DNA of 64,000 nucleotides from a virus, in the IMG/VR virus record IMGVR_UViG_3300018080_000001, positions 106,100 through 170,099 of that record; one strand, written 5' to 3'. Position 1 is the stretch's first letter. Each line of letters opens with the position of its first letter. Below the pieces are notes generated by a model, which worked only from the letters and a program-made list of their open reading frames with translations, was not told the DNA's origin and ran no database searches. The translations under genes and the position numbers were made by a program. Positions 5,120-47,796 of the stretch are shown here, one piece after another.

Positions 5120-6514
5120 TTATTGCTGTATAATAGCCTCTACAAAACCTTTTATACCCTCACATACTAAAGCCTTAATCTTTTCTTGATTAAAAGACTC
5201 TACATTATCCCACTCCGTTTCATGCGGAGGAACTCCAGTAGAAGGATCACCCTCTACTTTTTTATAAACGATACTATATGCATTAACATCATTGCCCCCA
5301 ACAACAGTTAATTCTACTTCAGCTTCATACGCTTCTTCCTCCACCATGATAGCATCAATAACATCCTCAAAATGCATAGAAGATAGCCTATCACCTTCTA
5401 TAGCCTCGGAAATAAACTCCATATAAACTTCAGACGTTGTATTACCTGCTGGGGGAATCGCTTCCAAAGCCATATCCACACAGTTTCTAATAAAACCGTC
5501 TCCCACCTCCACCTCTATTTTACCCACGAACTCCGCGCCTTCCGGCATTTCATCGGGCATAGCGTACTGCGCCTTTCTCCCCGCCGCTATTGCACCCCCC
5601 AAACTCTCCGTTACCTTATTAAACTTATCAGGATCTGATTCTTTCAAATCCATTAATTTGTCAAGAACCTCTACAATTTGTAAAGACTCCTCATACTTTA
5701 TTCTTTGGTCTTCAGAATACTGAGCTAAATTATTTTTCAAAAGATCTGCTGAACTTTGCACAGCATTCCAGTCCCCGTCATAAACCGCACTCTGAATTTG
5801 CTCCAAGCCCCTAGCAATTTCTTGTATTTCTTGAGACCTTGACTGCGGACTATATTTAAATTTTTCAATCTCGTCTAAAGTAAATTCCATGTCAGCAACA
5901 GTAGAATCAAGCCTAGAAATATAATCAAGAAGTTGATTAACACGATCTTGCTCCTTATCCACAGAACTCATAGACCTGTCAAAAAAAGAAAAAGCAGTCT
6001 CCAGATCCATAGGAGACATACGACCTTGTTCCGTATATAAACCGGGAATATTAGATTTATAAAATATAACTTTTCCATCTTTATCTAAAGCAACACCAAC
6101 GGACTCTAAAACTTCTTTCAATCTTTCAATATCCTCTAATTCATCATACTCCTCTAAAGTCCACGCTTCCTCTATATCTTCATCCCCCAACGGTATGATC
6201 TCTTCTTCAGCTTCGAAATCAGGATATTCTTCTTCCGACTCGGCATATTCTTCAGGAACAAAAAGTCCGCCGTCCTCTTTCTGAACAAAACGTTGTGCGG
6301 CTTTACTCAATTTACTGGAAATATTAGATTCTTCTGCACTTTTTACTTTTCCCGTCCTAACACCTATACCTCTTTCAGCAAGAGCCACAGTAAAAGGATA
6401 AACGTCCTCTTCATCTAAACTTTTTACCAGCATATTATATGAATCTTGACGAAGAATTCCTTCTTCTTCCATCATCAATTCCGCACGTCCTATAGCATCT
6501 TGTAATGTAATCAT
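5120..6514 (-). CDS. Acidic hypothetical protein, possible internal head protein
   Basis: 464 aa, very Glu/Asp-rich, in the structural operon. Confidence 0.55.
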   Translation of the reverse strand: MITLQDAIGRAELMMEEEGILRQDSYNMLVKSLDEEDVYPFTVALAERGIGVRTGKVKSAEESNISSKLSKAAQRFVQKEDGGLFVPEEYAESEEEYPDFEAEEEIIPLGDEDIEEAWTLEEYDELEDIERLKEVLESVGVALDKDGKVIFYKSNIPGLYTEQGRMSPMDLETAFSFFDRSMSSVDKEQDRVNQLLDYISRLDSTVADMEFTLDEIEKFKYSPQSRSQEIQEIARGLEQIQSAVYDGDWNAVQSSADLLKNNLAQYSEDQRIKYEESLQIVEVLDKLMDLKESDPDKFNKVTESLGGAIAAGRKAQYAMPDEMPEGAEFVGKIEVEVGDGFIRNCVDMALEAIPPAGNTTSEVYMEFISEAIEGDRLSSMHFEDVIDAIMVEEEAYEAEVELTVVGGNDVNAYSIVYKKVEGDPSTGVPPHETEWDNVESFNQEKIKALVCEGIKGFVEAIIQQ

Positions 6515-27826: not shown

Positions 27827-29407
27827 CTATGTATTTACTACAAATGAACCTGCGCTATCTGTAGCAGAAAGACCTGCTGCTGGATATGCAACAGTAGTTC
27901 CTCCTGTGACAAATCGAATATCTCCAAGAGTACCGCTTAGTGCTGATGCGTTGATTCTAATAATAGATAAAGCATCTATTTCTAGACCATACTTAGTAAT
28001 ATTTGCAGTTTCTCCATCAATATTTACACAATCAAAATTAGCACGTCTAACAAAAAAAGCACTATCTACAGTATCTCTAAAGTATACATAAGTGAAATGC
28101 CCGCAACCACCAATTGAATATATTCCACTAGAGAAACATCTACCAACATATGTATTATTTATAGTCACACTGGAATTATCATATATTTCTATTCCAGAAC
28201 AAGTTACTCCGTAAGTTTCCATATTTGAGTTATAGCCTGTAAATATAGTTCCTAGAACAGTAACATCAGCAAGATTACACTTACCGTAGTATATATCAAA
28301 AGCTCTCTTGTAAGATCCTGGAGCACCATCTGTATCAGTAATAATCGTACCAGGAAAATAATCCGTATTGGGTAATCTAAAATCTACATTCTTAATTTCA
28401 CTTGGAAATGATAAAGCTGCACCCCCAATAAATACATTTCCTTCAACCGTAGTCTTAGCAGCTTTTAATTTTACTCCATTAGTATGAAGGAAATTGTCAT
28501 TTCCAGAGATCTTTAGTCTATTATCTGATCCTGTTACTTCAAGATAAATACCGGTTACACCGAATCTGACTCCATTTGTATACAATGTACCTATGTCAAA
28601 CCTATTCTCTACATGTAAATCTATCCCGTGATTGACAGAAATTTTTACAGGTAAATCTACAATTTCAAATGTTTCAGACGTACTTGGTATAGAAAGCGAT
28701 TCTCCTATAGTAATTCTGTCTGCATCATTTGAATGAATAGCATAGCATTTACCAGAATTAGATCCAGAAGTCGCTCTAAGAAATTTTCCTACAAATTGAT
28801 CTGTTGTCCATCCTGCTCCAGCTACAGTTATATCATGAGCTACAGGAACACCCGCAGCAGTAATATTAGTAGTTCCTGTAATCGTGAAAGGTCCTGCAAC
28901 TGTAGTAGTATCTCCTTGTCCTTGAATTGTTAATTGACCAATTCCATGTATTTCATGAGTAATATCATAAGGAAACTCAGTATAAGTACCTTCGGTAAGT
29001 AGAACATTTATCTTATGTCCTATTTTCCTTGGTATTTTGGAAAGAGCATACGTAATAGTTTCATAAGGTTTACTGTCTGATCCGTCTCCTGCATAATTAT
29101 TTCCTGTAATTTGATTAACATAAATATCCAAATCTGTATCAGTAGTATCTTTCCCAATAGATCCATCTGATACTACATCTCTATATTTTAAACTAGTTAC
29201 ATCATCCGCAGATAATTGTACAGAATCCAAATAACAATAAGCTTTACTTGTAGAAACATAAGTAGATAAAATATCCAATATAGTACTATTAAATTGAATT
29301 TCGTTCAAATCTATTGTTTTTTGTTCCCCAACAGATAAAGTAAGATTAGCTTGTGGAAAAGACAATACATTTTGTGATATATTTGTTACAGTAATTATTT
29401 TAGACAT
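27827..29407 (-). CDS. Beta-helix fibre/spike paralog 3
   Basis: Closest to 30056..31636. Confidence 0.7.
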   Translation of the reverse strand: MSKIITVTNISQNVLSFPQANLTLSVGEQKTIDLNEIQFNSTILDILSTYVSTSKAYCYLDSVQLSADDVTSLKYRDVVSDGSIGKDTTDTDLDIYVNQITGNNYAGDGSDSKPYETITYALSKIPRKIGHKINVLLTEGTYTEFPYDITHEIHGIGQLTIQGQGDTTTVAGPFTITGTTNITAAGVPVAHDITVAGAGWTTDQFVGKFLRATSGSNSGKCYAIHSNDADRITIGESLSIPSTSETFEIVDLPVKISVNHGIDLHVENRFDIGTLYTNGVRFGVTGIYLEVTGSDNRLKISGNDNFLHTNGVKLKAAKTTVEGNVFIGGAALSFPSEIKNVDFRLPNTDYFPGTIITDTDGAPGSYKRAFDIYYGKCNLADVTVLGTIFTGYNSNMETYGVTCSGIEIYDNSSVTINNTYVGRCFSSGIYSIGGCGHFTYVYFRDTVDSAFFVRRANFDCVNIDGETANITKYGLEIDALSIIRINASALSGTLGDIRFVTGGTTVAYPAAGLSATDSAGSFVVNT

Positions 29408-35127: not shown

Positions 35128-35318
35128 TGGTGCTGGCTGGTCCTGCTCCAGCTAAATAAAATGTGTCCTCCTAGTGCGGTGTTCTCCTACCACCACACAG
35201 GGCCAAGAGACGGGCCGCTGAGGAGAAGTCAAGCGGCGTTTGAGGTCTAGTAAACCTCACGATCTCAGACCGTTTCTAGGACGCTTAGCAGTGTATCTAA
35301 GCTCCACATCGCAGCACC
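35128..35318 (-). ncRNA. 191-nt structured RNA with tRNA-like acceptor and T arms
   Basis: GGTGCTG/CAGCACC-A 7-bp stem, GCTGG-AGCAGGA-CCAGC arm, nested helices whose G-U pairs favour the minus strand. Confidence 0.65.
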
Positions 35319-35320
35319 CG

Positions 35321-35403
35321 TGCGAGAAGTGGGATTCGAACCCACAAGGGATTTCTCCCGTTGGATTTTAAGTCCAATCCGTAGACCGTTCCGGCATTCT
35401 CGC
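35321..35403 (-). tRNA. tRNA-Leu(TAA)
   Basis: GCGAGAA acceptor, TTGGA-CT-TAA-AA-TCCAA anticodon arm, long variable arm, GTGGG-TTCGAAT-CCCAC; CCA not encoded. Confidence 0.92.
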
Positions 35404-37786: not shown

Positions 37787-38311
37787 CTAAAAGCTTCTTT
37801 CATTCAATTCTTTGGCCAACGCTTCTCTAGCTCGGGCCAAATCCTTTTCCGTGTGAATACTTCCACCGGTATTCATATCCAAATACCACTGAATAACATC
37901 TGATCTCTTCTCCAAATCATTTACATGGAAACTAAAACGAGCAGTTAGGATATCTAAGCTGCCTGTAAAATCTTTGTATAAACAATCAAAAGCCGGAACT
38001 TCATTATGTAAAAACCCTAAAGCCGCTGATAATCTTTGTTTACCATCCACAATTTCGATAGGAGTATCAAAACCTTTAAACCAAGAAGAACAGTTCCAAA
38101 ATATTTCTCTTCCTGACATGCCATTTTTTAATATATACTCTACATAAGCACTTTTCTGTTCTGTTGTCCAAACATAGTTCCGCTGATAATCAGGATCTAT
38201 GTCCAACCCAAGCTCTTCAGCTTGGTCCTTTAACCAGGTTTCTAAATGAACCCATGACATATCAATACGATATTTACTGCGCGTAAATGATCTAATTTCT
38301 TGAAAATTCAT
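37787..38311 (-). CDS. DUF262 (ParB/sulfiredoxin-like, GmrS-type) protein
   Basis: PDYQRNYVW, IVDGKQRL, MNTGG. Confidence 0.8.
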   Translation of the reverse strand: MNFQEIRSFTRSKYRIDMSWVHLETWLKDQAEELGLDIDPDYQRNYVWTTEQKSAYVEYILKNGMSGREIFWNCSSWFKGFDTPIEIVDGKQRLSAALGFLHNEVPAFDCLYKDFTGSLDILTARFSFHVNDLEKRSDVIQWYLDMNTGGSIHTEKDLARAREALAKELNERSF

Positions 38312-38368: not shown

Positions 38369-38845
38369 TCACAATATACATATATGACATGCGCTGGAAT
38401 CTTGGTTACAACATAATTTTTTCACAACATCCATATCTGACATGCGCTGAAACCAAGGAAGACCATATTCTTTCACTGCATCACGTTGTTCCACTGCTAT
38501 ATGAGAATCAACAGCTCCTTTAATTTTCCACCAAAGATCACAAGGAACTGGCAATAAAAGTCCAATACGGGTTCTTACCGTGCAATCGTATTCTTTCGGA
38601 AGTCCTTTAAATTTAGGGGTATCTAAAAACTCACTGGTCCCAGGATAATATACTCCCAGATTTATAGTGATACGACCTTCGTCTCCTTCATTCCATCTAC
38701 TAGATTGAACATTTACTACTTCTATTCGTTCCTCGAATTCTCGATAAAAAGTTCTAGCCTTCTTCTTGAACCCTTGTTCCTTAAGAAAAGGGACGAGTCC
38801 TTCTCGTATAGTCTCATCAATTATTTTTGAAATAGTGCCCATCAC
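38369..38845 (-). CDS. DUF4304-like protein
   Basis: PFLKEQGFKKKARTFYR...VNVQSSRWN...TINLGV. Confidence 0.6.
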   Translation of the reverse strand: MMGTISKIIDETIREGLVPFLKEQGFKKKARTFYREFEERIEVVNVQSSRWNEGDEGRITINLGVYYPGTSEFLDTPKFKGLPKEYDCTVRTRIGLLLPVPCDLWWKIKGAVDSHIAVEQRDAVKEYGLPWFQRMSDMDVVKKLCCNQDSSACHICIL

Positions 38846-39294: not shown

Positions 39295-39651
39295 TTACTC
39301 TTCACCATGTTCAATAGGATTCAACCAATCCAAAATAAACTCTGCTGCTTTATATACATCTTCTTCATTAAATGAAATTTTTTTCTTATATGTTTCTTCA
39401 TCAATACCATCCATACAAGAATTTTCCATTTTATAAACTACAATACCATCTGCATTTTTACAATTCGAGAAATAAGCTACGCGACCTTTAGCGCATGGTT
39501 GGACACTAGAAGAATAGAGTTGTACGCAGAATCCGTTTTCTCTCCCATTGTGATAAGTAACAACACAACCATTCAATGCGTAGTCGTTAAACTTCATTTC
39601 CAAAATACACAGAACAGCTTCTGCTTGCTTCCAAGTTCTGATGAGACCCAT
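39295..39651 (-). CDS. Hypothetical protein
   Basis: ORF track. Confidence 0.55.
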   Translation of the reverse strand: MGLIRTWKQAEAVLCILEMKFNDYALNGCVVTYHNGRENGFCVQLYSSSVQPCAKGRVAYFSNCKNADGIVVYKMENSCMDGIDEETYKKKISFNEEDVYKAAEFILDWLNPIEHGEE

Positions 39652-39675
39652 GATATTACCCCTTTCTGTTCATAT

Positions 39676-40001
39676 AAAACTAAACACTACATGGTGGATG
39701 ACATCGCTGTACCTTCCCAGGCGCTTTGGTGTGACCCGTTGTCGGCTACACTGGCTTTTCCACCTTTCGGTTTCGTCCTCCTAGAACTTAACGTTCATCA
39801 TCGGAGTAACACCATACCGCTTCCGAGTCCTGTAAATCTTGCCCTTTTGGATACCTTACTGGACTTATTAGCTTACGCTTTGGCCAACCCTACTCAATTC
39901 GGGATGCTCGGTATCGAAGGCTCAACAGTCATCGCGTCCACTTTCCCACGTTTTCGGCAGACGTTCTTCAGCCTGTCATCCACCATGTAGTATTTAGTTT
40001 T
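39676..40001 (-). ncRNA. About 326-nt GC-rich RNA closed by a 28-bp stem
   Basis: IR 39676-39703 / 39974-40001 (27/28 match); boxA-like sequence and promoter upstream. Confidence 0.65.
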
Positions 40002-40009
40002 CAAAGAAC
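39997..40009 (-). promoter_or_regulatory. boxA-like antitermination signal GTTCTTTGAAAAC
   Basis: Matches the rRNA-leader boxA form. Confidence 0.6.
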
Positions 40010-40027
40010 TTTATTAATTTCTAATAT

Positions 40028-40057
40028 ATAATATAGTCTTTAAAACTTATCTGTCAA
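40028..40057 (-). promoter_or_regulatory. sigma70-type promoter for the ncRNA
   Basis: TTGACA-16-TATATT (or 18-TATTAT). Confidence 0.7.
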
Positions 40058-47716: not shown

Positions 47717-47796
47717 TGGGGGAGATGGCAGGATTCGAACCTGCATGTTCCCCTTTGGGTGAGTTTTCCACGGTGGCCACCTACTCTACATCTCCC
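47717..47796 (-). ncRNA. tRNA-like RNA with His-type acceptor end and no canonical anticodon arm
   Basis: G-GGAGATG/CATCTCC-C-CCA, perfect T arm GCAGG-TTCGAAT-CCTGC, D-stem GAGT/ACTC; anticodon arm reduced to CCC-AAA-GGG. Confidence 0.7.

What the first reader, a model, noticed from the sequence alone, without database searches (positions are those of the whole stretch)
39676..40057. Unknown ~270-nt RNA expressed with rRNA-style signals (promoter, boxA, 28-bp processing stem)
Seen on the minus strand: a TTGACA promoter, then GTTCTTTGAAAAC, then a 28-bp near-perfect inverted repeat enclosing about 270 nt of markedly GC-rich sequence with internal hairpins (CC-GAAA-GG, GAAC-GTTAA-GTTC inside CTCC/GGAG, GTGTAGCC...GGTCACAC). 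Established: boxA plus a long closing helix is how rRNAs are antiterminated and excised by RNase III. I could not match the core to RNase P, tmRNA, SRP, 6S or intron motifs. Inference: an abundant, processed and possibly new large structured phage RNA.
Basis: partly seen in the sequence, partly recalled or inferred. Interest (0 to 1): 0.82.

Follow-up and report, generated by a model that had tools for sequence, protein, structure and literature searches.

The report
Phage RNA built like an rRNA precursor
This gene-free gap of an uncultivated 170-kb phage encodes a roughly 300-base non-coding RNA of an uncatalogued family, also carried by an unrelated phage and flanked by the signals bacteria use to transcribe and cut out ribosomal RNA; its job is unknown.

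Summary
On the minus strand there is a strong sigma-70-type promoter, one of about 12 near-identical phage promoters. It is followed by an exact rrn-type boxA and a 36-bp helix between the two flanks that encloses 270 nt with stops in all three sense frames.

I checked the boxA against real genomes. The same 18-mer lies 90-220 nt upstream of 16S or 23S rRNA in bacteria of many phyla. There, as here, it pairs with a complement downstream of the rRNA.

The 270-nt core alone folds no better than shuffled sequence, and it matches no Rfam family and no rRNA. It is nevertheless conserved. A 98-kb, 64%-GC phage (G422) that shares only about 7 weakly similar ORFs with this 36%-GC phage carries the same RNA. 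Its terminal blocks are 93-100% identical, its middle arm is variable, it has its own boxA variant, and its flank helix has a quite different sequence (13 compensatory pairs in 21).

The most likely reading is a real, selected non-coding RNA made and excised like an rRNA precursor. Transcription, Nus-factor binding, RNase III cleavage, abundance and function are all untested. Only two members are known.

The scan had already noted the G422 copy (e1-5355224). Other phages put the same boxA-plus-helix cassette around small protein genes, so the cassette itself is not specific to this RNA.

The parts
40028..40057 (-). Sigma-70-type promoter: -35 TTGACA at 40057-40052; -10 TATATT or TATTAT ending at 40030 or 40028
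   Evidence: 11 of 12, the best match in the region; one of about 12 copies of a conserved TATATTGACAG promoter family in the 170-kb genome.
39992..40009 (-). rrn-type boxA, GTTCTTTGAAAACTAAAT (core 13-mer at 40009-39997)
   Evidence: exact and unique in the window; the same 18-mer lies in rrn leaders and spacers of many phyla, 90-220 nt before 16S or 23S in 8 of 12 sampled loci. It matches 10 of 11 positions of the published consensus GYTCTTTAANA (PMC5725501).
39974..40009 (-). 5' (leader) strand of the long helix; it includes boxA
   Evidence: 36 pairs with the trailer strand; the helix is kept in the second phage by 13 compensatory pairs among 21 positions.
39933..39975 (-). Conserved 5' block of the core (CAGGCTGAAGAACGTCTGCCGAAAACGTGGGAAAGTGGACGCG)
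   Evidence: 40 of 43 positions identical to phage G422.
39833..39932 (-). Variable middle arm
   Evidence: 41 of 105 aligned columns identical, about chance level. Its GC follows each phage's own composition (45% against 60%).
39700..39832 (-). Conserved 3' domain. It contains hairpins GAAC-GUUAA-GUUC, ACC-GAAA-GGU and GCCU-GGGA-AGGU, and ends in an invariant 27-mer
   Evidence: the last 27 of 27 and 35 of 44 positions are identical. Two hairpins are kept by compensatory changes (GAAC/GUUC to CGGG/CCCG; ACC/GGU to GCC/GGC). Model R1 built on this domain finds the G422 copy at E 8.6e-40.
39668..39703 (-). 3' (trailer) strand of the long helix, including the anti-boxA part TTTAGTTTT....GAAC
   Evidence: The same boxA:anti-boxA pairing is seen in real rrn operons.
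39649..39665 (-). Shine-Dalgarno AAAGGGG (39665-39659) and ATG (39651-39649) of the next gene, 3 nt after the foot of the helix
   Evidence: Read directly. In G422 the SD AAGGAG likewise follows the trailer strand at once. No terminator lies between the RNA and the gene.
39295..39651 (-). First co-transcribed gene, 118 aa, unknown function (phrog_6319). It is not conserved alongside the RNA
   Evidence: No similarity to the gene that follows the RNA in G422.

Best explanation
The gap encodes a genuine, selected non-coding RNA of an uncatalogued family, about 270 nt of core inside a 36-bp helix. The phage makes it the way its host makes ribosomal RNA.

Shown: a host-type early promoter sits upstream. 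About 10-20 nt into the predicted transcript lies an exact rrn-type boxA. That boxA and the next 25 nt pair with the sequence just after the core, forming a leader-trailer helix like those that flank 16S and 23S rRNA. Core and architecture are conserved in an unrelated phage, with the helix kept by compensatory changes.

Inferred: boxA loads NusB/NusE and the other Nus factors onto RNA polymerase. This makes transcription of the untranslated stretch resistant to Rho and holds the 5' strand near the polymerase until the 3' strand emerges, so the long helix closes. RNase III then cuts the helix. That releases a roughly 300-nt structured RNA and gives the downstream early mRNA a new 5' end; its ribosome-binding site lies 3 nt from the foot of the helix.

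The near-invariant 5' and 3' blocks next to the helix probably form the functional core. Because they are conserved between phages of 36% and 64% GC, they would most likely contact something universally conserved in bacteria. What that is remains unknown.
For: Signals:
- Promoter.
- boxA is exact and unique in the window. The same 18-mer sits in rrn leaders and spacers across phyla.
- In real rrn operons boxA pairs with a trailer complement as it does here.
- The flank helix has 36 bp here and 34 bp in G422.

Conservation:
- nhmmer aligns core positions 2-269 to a metagenome contig at E 1.4e-14. That contig is identical over the aligned region to part of IMG/VR phage G422.
- Identity by block: 40 of 43, 35 of 44 and 27 of 27, with a variable arm at 41 of 105.
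- G000 and G422 share only 7 ORF matches at 28-46% amino-acid identity. Their terminases differ and the flanking genes are unrelated.
- In the helix, 21 of 21 positions pair in both phages, 13 with both sides changed. Shifted controls break 11-15 of them.
- Two inner hairpins are kept by compensatory changes.

Non-coding: stops in all three sense frames.

Parallels in G422:
- Its boxA variant GTTCTTTGACAATT equals the spacer boxA of a Bacteriovorax rrn operon, which lies after the spacer tRNA.
- In G422 the boxA is preceded by a tRNA-like minihelix.

Background on boxA/Nus and leader-trailer helices: PMC10250234, PMC5725501.
Against: - The core alone folds no better than shuffles (z +0.13).
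- Apart from the helix and two hairpins, no inner secondary structure can be tested. Only two distinct sequences are known, and the conserved blocks barely vary.
- The boxA-plus-helix cassette is not specific to RNA genes. In four other viral contigs it encloses small ORFs.
- There is no terminator after the RNA, so it is part of an mRNA leader.
- There are no expression data: transcription, Nus binding, RNase III cleavage and stability are all inferred.
- The family looks rare. One other member turned up in exact-motif scans of IMG/VR and JGI metagenomes. None turned up in 47 other viral records searched with a covariance model.
Confidence: 0.62

Rival explanations
1. The element is purely a cis-acting leader. 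boxA gives processive antitermination for the early operon, and the long helix is an RNase III site that controls translation or stability of the downstream gene, as in the lambda PL-nutL-N leader. The enclosed 270 nt would then have no function of its own as a free RNA.
For: - The same promoter-boxA-helix-RBS layout encloses small ORFs in L262, L226, L200/L261 and L218, so the cassette works independently of its cargo.
- In both phages the next gene's SD lies 0-3 nt from the foot of the helix.
- No terminator follows the RNA.
- The core has no thermodynamic signal.
Against: - A mere spacer would not keep blocks at 40 of 43 and 27 of 27 identity between phages whose proteins are at most 46% identical and whose flanking genes are unrelated.
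- The downstream genes differ, so no conserved cis target exists apart from the polymerase or the ribosome themselves.

The two readings are compatible: the core could act in cis on the transcribing polymerase, as put RNA does.
Confidence: 0.22
2. The core is a decayed remnant of a small gene that once sat inside the helix, as in the other phages.
For: - Other phages carry ORFs in the same position.
- A 163-aa ORF is open on the opposite strand.
Against: - There are stops in all three sense frames.
- Near-identity of the terminal blocks across unrelated phages does not fit decay.
- The antisense ORF has no Pfam or PHROG family. It is expected by chance opposite a purine-rich strand (62% purine).
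Confidence: 0.03
3. It is a DNA-level mobile element (MITE-like) or another DNA signal bounded by terminal inverted repeats.
For: - It has 28-36-nt inverted repeats.
- Its sporadic occurrence in two unrelated phages implies horizontal movement.
Against: - It is single-copy in both genomes.
- There is no target-site duplication.
- The repeat arms differ completely in sequence between the two phages while staying complementary. That is the signature of selection on an RNA helix, not on a transposase binding site.
- The arm contains a strand-specific boxA downstream of a promoter.
Confidence: 0.03
4. It is a diverged member of a known RNA family (RNase P, tmRNA, SRP, 6S, group I/II intron, GOLLD/ROOL, or an rRNA fragment).
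For: The closing helix formed by the two ends and the GNRA hairpins (3 seen against 0.73 expected, P about 0.04) are generic features of such RNAs.
Against: - No Rfam 15 family matches at gathering score or at E<=10 for either copy.
- RNase P type A searched alone found nothing at this locus.
- ARAGORN finds no tmRNA.
- blastn with 7-nt words against 80 genome loci that hold the boxA 18-mer (rrn operons in 8 of 12 sampled) matched only the boxA region, and nhmmer with the core found nothing there.
Confidence: 0.05

Closest known systems
Bacterial rrn operon leader/spacer: boxA (NusB/NusE site, rrn antitermination complex) plus the leader-trailer helix cut by RNase III
   Same: - The 18-nt boxA is identical.
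- boxA pairs with a trailer complement at the foot of a helix of more than 30 bp that encloses an untranslated RNA.
- It sits close to the promoter.
- In G422 a tRNA-like element precedes boxA, as the spacer tRNA does before 23S.
   Different: - The cargo is a 270-nt RNA with no similarity to 16S, 23S or 5S.
- It lies in a phage early operon and is followed directly by a protein gene.
- No boxB or boxC could be recognised.
Phage lambda PL leader: nutL (boxA + boxB) followed by an RNase III-sensitive hairpin upstream of gene N (from my own knowledge of the literature)
   Same: The order is the same: early promoter, boxA, large RNase III-type helix, then the ribosome-binding site of the first early gene. 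It also uses host Nus factors.
   Different: - There is no boxB hairpin after boxA.
- No N-like protein was recognised among the flanking genes.
- The helix closes around a conserved 270-nt core rather than being a simple hairpin.
Large phage/prophage RNAs of unknown function, GOLLD (RF02032) and ROOL (RF03087)
   Same: These are phage-borne, large, conserved non-coding RNAs with no known function and a sporadic distribution across unrelated phages.
   Different: - There is no covariance-model match.
- This RNA is less than half their size.
- To my knowledge, neither has been described with rrn-type boxA and leader-trailer signals.
boxA-regulated non-rRNA targets of the Nus complex (suhB 5' UTR; PMC5725501)
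   Same: boxA is used outside rRNA, in the 5' leader of a protein-coding transcript.
   Different: There the boxA represses translation of an adjacent gene and has no leader-trailer helix or structured cargo.

Membership tests
rrn-type boxA (Nus factor loading site) | Sequence matches the boxA found in rRNA operons | tested here: met
   The exact 18-mer occurs in at least 120 genome loci. In 8 of 12 sampled loci it lies 90-220 nt upstream of 16S or 23S. It matches 10 of 11 positions of GYTCTTTAANA (PMC5725501).
rrn-type boxA (Nus factor loading site) | Lies in the transcribed leader just downstream of a promoter, on the sense strand | tested here: met
   The -10 hexamer ends at 40030 or 40028 and boxA starts at 40009. 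The transcription start is inferred, not mapped.
rrn-type boxA (Nus factor loading site) | Binds NusB/NusE and confers antitermination | not testable with these tools
   Needs binding or read-through assays.
rRNA leader-trailer (processing) helix | Long helix formed by sequences flanking the RNA, including boxA paired to a trailer complement | tested here: met
   36 pairs here and 34 in G422. The same boxA:anti-boxA pairing occurs in 6 real rrn operons.
rRNA leader-trailer (processing) helix | Helix maintained by compensatory evolution | tested here: met
   21 of 21 positions pair in both phages, 13 with both sides changed. Shifted controls break 11-15. This rests on only two sequences.
rRNA leader-trailer (processing) helix | Cleaved by RNase III | not testable with these tools
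   Needs an in vitro or rnc-mutant assay.
Ribosomal RNA (16S/23S/5S) or a fragment of one | Sequence and structure similarity of the enclosed RNA to rRNA | tested here: not met
   No SSU, LSU or 5S match at E<=10. blastn and nhmmer against the genome loci that hold the boxA 18-mer (rrn operons in 8 of 12 sampled) hit only boxA.
Any Rfam 15 family (RNase P, tmRNA, SRP, 6S, introns, GOLLD, ROOL, riboswitches) | Covariance-model score at or near the gathering threshold | tested here: not met
   Nothing above 16 bits for this copy or the G422 copy. RNase P type A searched alone gave nothing at the locus.
Lambda-type nut site | boxB hairpin next to boxA, and an N-type antiterminator protein | tested here: not met
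   boxA runs straight into the long helix. Neighbouring proteins have no antiterminator family.
MITE / transposable element | Multiple copies, conserved terminal repeats, target-site duplication | tested here: not met
   Single copy. The arms differ in sequence between the two phages. The flanks TTTG and ATAT are not duplicated.

The most novel reading that the evidence does not exclude
Phages carry a portable RNA gene that hijacks the host's ribosomal-RNA production line. boxA recruits the Nus/rrn antitermination complex to chaperone its folding, and RNase III excises it. The mature RNA then acts in trans on a universally conserved host machine, such as ribosome assembly, translation or the Nus/RNA polymerase complex itself. 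That would explain why its core is nearly identical in phages of very different hosts.
Probability: 0.25. Interest if true: 0.85.

Novelty: new variant of a known kind. Interest (0 to 1): 0.68.

Why it matters
boxA and the leader-trailer helix are regarded as dedicated to ribosomal RNA, apart from lambdoid nut sites and a few Nus-regulated mRNAs. In the papers I could search I found no description of a phage non-coding RNA made with these signals, and none of this RNA's conserved motifs.

If the RNA is really excised and stable, it would be a new class of phage effector RNA. It would also be a natural example of the rRNA transcription, folding and processing machinery being reused for a foreign cargo.

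The near-identity of its core between phages of 36% and 64% GC points to a target common to distant bacteria. That makes the function testable by pull-down or by expression in model hosts.

The cassette (promoter, boxA, long helix) also appears around small phage genes. This suggests a general and under-described way in which phages organise early transcripts.

Tried and rejected
Searches for relatives that found nothing:
- blastn of the RNA against 50,697 cultured-phage records, for both copies.
- blastn against 16 large IMG/VR relatives picked by terminase.
- Model R1 against 47 further viral records.
- The downstream 118-aa gene has a single homolog, on a contig whose DNA is not held, with only 248 nt upstream of the gene.
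- The closest terminase relatives in Logan and ENA had no DNA available.
- Related-locus scans with the neighbouring single proteins.
- Exact-motif scans with three guessed core motifs. The fourth guess found the homolog.
- L321 from the 5'-block scan is a chance hit in coding-like DNA.
- 400 Bacillota genomes by blastn gave only chance-level short hits. The second such call drew the same genomes and added nothing.
- 151 Bdellovibrionota genomes with R1 gave one 23-bit hit, which on reading looks like coding DNA.

Other tests that gave nothing:
- No complementarity or identity of 13 nt or more between the core and the rest of the phage genome.
- Codon-position GC of the core was uninformative.
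- Weak Rfam hits to archaeal C/D-box sRNAs (E 1.6-9) were judged chance.
- RNAalifold on two sequences gave unstable inner structures. I list candidate long-range pairs in the full report but do not claim them.
- The boxA hits of 'family 1' in IMG/VR turned out to be group II introns.
- Host identification failed. The boxA 18-mer is shared by Bdellovibrionota, Desulfobacterota, Acidobacteriota, Bacillota, Mycoplasmatota, Elusimicrobiota and others.

Full report
WHAT IS THERE

The window is the last 64 kb of a 170,099-bp IMG/VR phage record with direct terminal repeats and 36% GC. Genes around the finding are small, tightly packed and all on the minus strand. Between the stop of an 85-aa ORF (40072) and the start of a 118-aa ORF (39651) lie 420 nt without a credible ORF. 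The sense strand has stops in all three frames. A 163-aa ORF on the opposite strand has no Pfam or PHROG family. Such an ORF is expected opposite a strand that is 62% purine.

The gap opens with TTGACA-N16/18-TATATT/TATTAT, the best sigma-70 match in 6.5 kb at 11 of 12. It is one of about 12 promoters in this genome that share TATATTGACAG. The exact 13-mer GTTCTTTGAAAAC starts about 20 nt after the -10 hexamer. From within that motif, 28 contiguous base pairs form with the sequence 270 nt downstream. Adding GUUC/GAAC outside and GCUG/CAGC inside gives 36 pairs. This is the strongest inverted repeat in the window. No terminator follows. The next gene's Shine-Dalgarno sequence starts 3 nt after the helix.

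IS THE boxA REAL?

I did not rely on memory of the consensus. The 18-mer GTTCTTTGAAAACTAAAT was found in at least 120 loci of the species-genome collection, across many phyla. In 8 of 12 loci scanned with Rfam it lies 90-220 nt upstream of 16S or 23S rRNA. Three of the other four hits sit at contig ends, and the fourth lies beside a group II intron.

In six of these operons the boxA pairs with a complement downstream of the rRNA, of the form ...ATTTAGTTTTGAAAGAAC.... So in real rrn operons boxA forms the foot of the leader-trailer helix. The phage element copies this: AAAACTAAAT pairs with GTTTAGTTTT, and GTTC with GAAC.

The roles of boxA, the Nus complex and the leader-trailer helix in rRNA synthesis are described in PMC10250234 and PMC5725501. 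The phage motif matches the consensus in the latter (GYTCTTTAANA) at 10 of 11 positions.

IS THE ENCLOSED RNA MORE THAN A SPACER?

At first the evidence was weak.
- The whole element folds far better than shuffles (z -5.7), but the 270-nt core alone does not (z +0.13).
- Its GC of 51% is in the top 0.8% of windows, yet 18 other islands exist and several are coding.
- No Rfam family matched at gathering score or at E<=10.
- No rRNA similarity was found.
- There were no hits in cultured phages, in 16 terminase relatives or in 400 Bacillota genomes.

A scan of IMG/VR for the boxA 17-mer gave 77 stretches, none of them next to rRNA. Four of those contigs (L262, L226, L200/L261, L218) have the same layout: promoter, boxA, a helix of 27-36 bp, then the RBS of the next gene. 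In them the helix encloses small ORFs of 40-200 aa. So the cassette is not in itself a mark of an RNA gene.

The decisive result came from an exact-motif scan of JGI metagenomes with an 18-mer from the 3' end of the core. One of the 15 hits (L313) aligns to core positions 2-269 with nhmmer at E 1.4e-14. Its sequence is identical, over the stretch compared, to part of a complete 98,187-bp IMG/VR phage, G422, with 64% GC, at 28174-28534.

G422 is not a relative of this phage.
- Only 7 ORF matches at 28-46% amino-acid identity.
- No terminase of this phage's type.
- Unrelated genes on both sides of the RNA.

Yet the RNA is conserved, by block:
- 5' block: 40 of 43 identical.
- 3' middle block: 35 of 44 identical.
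- Terminal 27-mer: 27 of 27 identical.
- Middle arm: 41 of 105 identical, about chance, and it follows each phage's own GC.

The architecture is also the same in G422: a boxA (GGTTCTTTGACAATTCG), a 34-bp helix that includes boxA paired to an anti-boxA, the core, then SD and ATG directly after the trailer strand. The G422 boxA variant is itself an rrn signal. GTTCTTTGACAATT occurs in the 16S-23S spacer of a Bacteriovorax operon, after the spacer tRNA and before 23S.

The two helices differ in sequence. Anchored at their inner ends, 21 of 21 positions pair in both phages and 13 have changed on both sides. Sliding one strand by 1-3 nt breaks 11-15 of them. Two inner hairpins are also kept by compensatory changes: GAAC/GUUC becomes CGGG/CCCG, and ACC/GGU becomes GCC/GGC.

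Neither copy matches an Rfam family. A covariance model of the 3' domain (R1) recovers G422 at E 8.6e-40 but nothing in 47 other viral records, including the 16 terminase relatives. The element is therefore a rare, horizontally distributed module under strong selection at the RNA level.

WHAT I COULD NOT SETTLE

With two distinct sequences, and blocks that barely vary, the inner fold cannot be determined. RNAalifold gives unstable answers. The few variable positions inside the blocks fit several candidate pairings:
- UCUGCC (5' block) with GGYGGR (3' block).
- YGGU with GCCR.
- UACY with RGUG.

The last two compete for the same column. These are leads, not findings.

The host is unknown, because the boxA 18-mer is shared by many phyla. 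Nothing here shows transcription, Nus binding, cleavage, stability or circularity.

MECHANISM

The best-supported account is that the phage makes this RNA as the cell makes rRNA.
- boxA loads the Nus factors. This protects a long untranslated transcript from Rho and helps the distant strands of the helix find each other.
- RNase III cuts the helix, freeing the RNA and trimming the leader of the downstream mRNA.

The main rival is that the element acts only in cis, as lambda's nutL/RNase III leader does for gene N, or as a put-like RNA acting on the polymerase. The ORF-bearing cassettes, and the RBS placed at the foot of the helix in both phages, favour a cis role for the cassette. The strong conservation of the core between phages with unrelated downstream genes says the core has a function of its own. 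The two readings are not exclusive.

PRIOR NOTES OF THIS SCAN

After I had found G422 myself, a look-up by sequence showed that the G422 copy had been reported before (e1-5355224) as a new structured RNA shared by unrelated phages and carrying rRNA-type signals. Other notes describe boxA-plus-helix cassettes around phage genes (e1-397537, e1-5644575, e1-149563). These are unchecked AI notes. My conclusions rest on the calls cited above.

In the paper library I found no description of this RNA or of a phage non-coding RNA made with boxA and a leader-trailer helix.

VERDICT

It is unproven for abundance, processing and function.

Noticed in passing
L262:4550-4990 (IMGVR_UViG_3300021468_000003); L226:4330-4830 (3300029822_000107); L200:520-1340 and L261 (3300044699_000006); L218 (3300037067_000391): Other viral contigs have the same cassette: promoter, the same boxA 17-mer, a long-range helix of 27-36 bp, then the RBS of the next gene. 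There the helix encloses small protein genes of 65 aa, 58+40 aa, about 200 aa and 130 aa.
   Followed up: partly
L226:5149-5216 and 5523-5595: Two type II hammerhead ribozymes (45 and 43 bits, above the gathering score) sit between consecutive small early genes, just downstream of the boxA-helix cassette. This suggests ribozyme-punctuated early mRNA.
   Followed up: no
L322:6286-6327 (G422:28129-28170): Directly upstream of the G422 boxA lies a tRNA-like minihelix: a 6-7-bp acceptor-like stem plus a perfect T arm, CCGGGUUCGAAUCCCGG. Its best Rfam match is the tRNA-like mascRNA at 21 bits, below threshold. ARAGORN calls no tRNA, and the MFE fold differs. It may be an RNase P/Z processing signal that mimics the spacer tRNA of rrn operons.
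   Followed up: partly
L194, L222, L260 (prophages of isolate genomes) and L098 (Bacillus): The boxA-like 17-mer also occurs inside a group II intron, between the D1-D4 and D5-D6 Rfam matches. About a dozen IMG/VR hits share the same flanking sequence; Rfam confirmed the intron in the three scanned.
   Followed up: partly
window 4104, 4356 (+); 9675, 40057, 40384, 47463, 55278 (-); further copies in the first 106 kb of the genome: About 12 promoters share the extended motif TCAnTATATTGACAG-N17-TAnnnT, most followed by GTTATGTTTTCCTTAA and an SD. This is probably the phage's early promoter class for host RNA polymerase.
   Followed up: partly
window 47720-47795 (-): A tRNA-like element scores 35.7 bits on the Rfam tRNA model, with a long D region and a truncated anticodon arm. 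ARAGORN does not call it.
   Followed up: no
window 35128-35318 (-), just after tRNA-Leu(TAA) at 35320-35403: A GC-rich island (54%) follows the only tRNA gene directly and lies downstream in the same transcription direction as the RNA studied here. Another first-reader note describes it as a tRNA-ended RNA.
   Followed up: no
window 37787-38311 (-) and 38369-38845 (-): The operon downstream of the RNA encodes a protein like the N-terminal domain of GmrSD (PF03235, E 2e-13) and a DUF4304 protein (E 9e-24).
   Followed up: no
L258:1044-1160 (IMGVR_UViG_3300035208_001839): The boxA 17-mer follows the last tRNA of a phage tRNA array by 10 nt and precedes an SD-ATG gene by about 15 nt.
   Followed up: no
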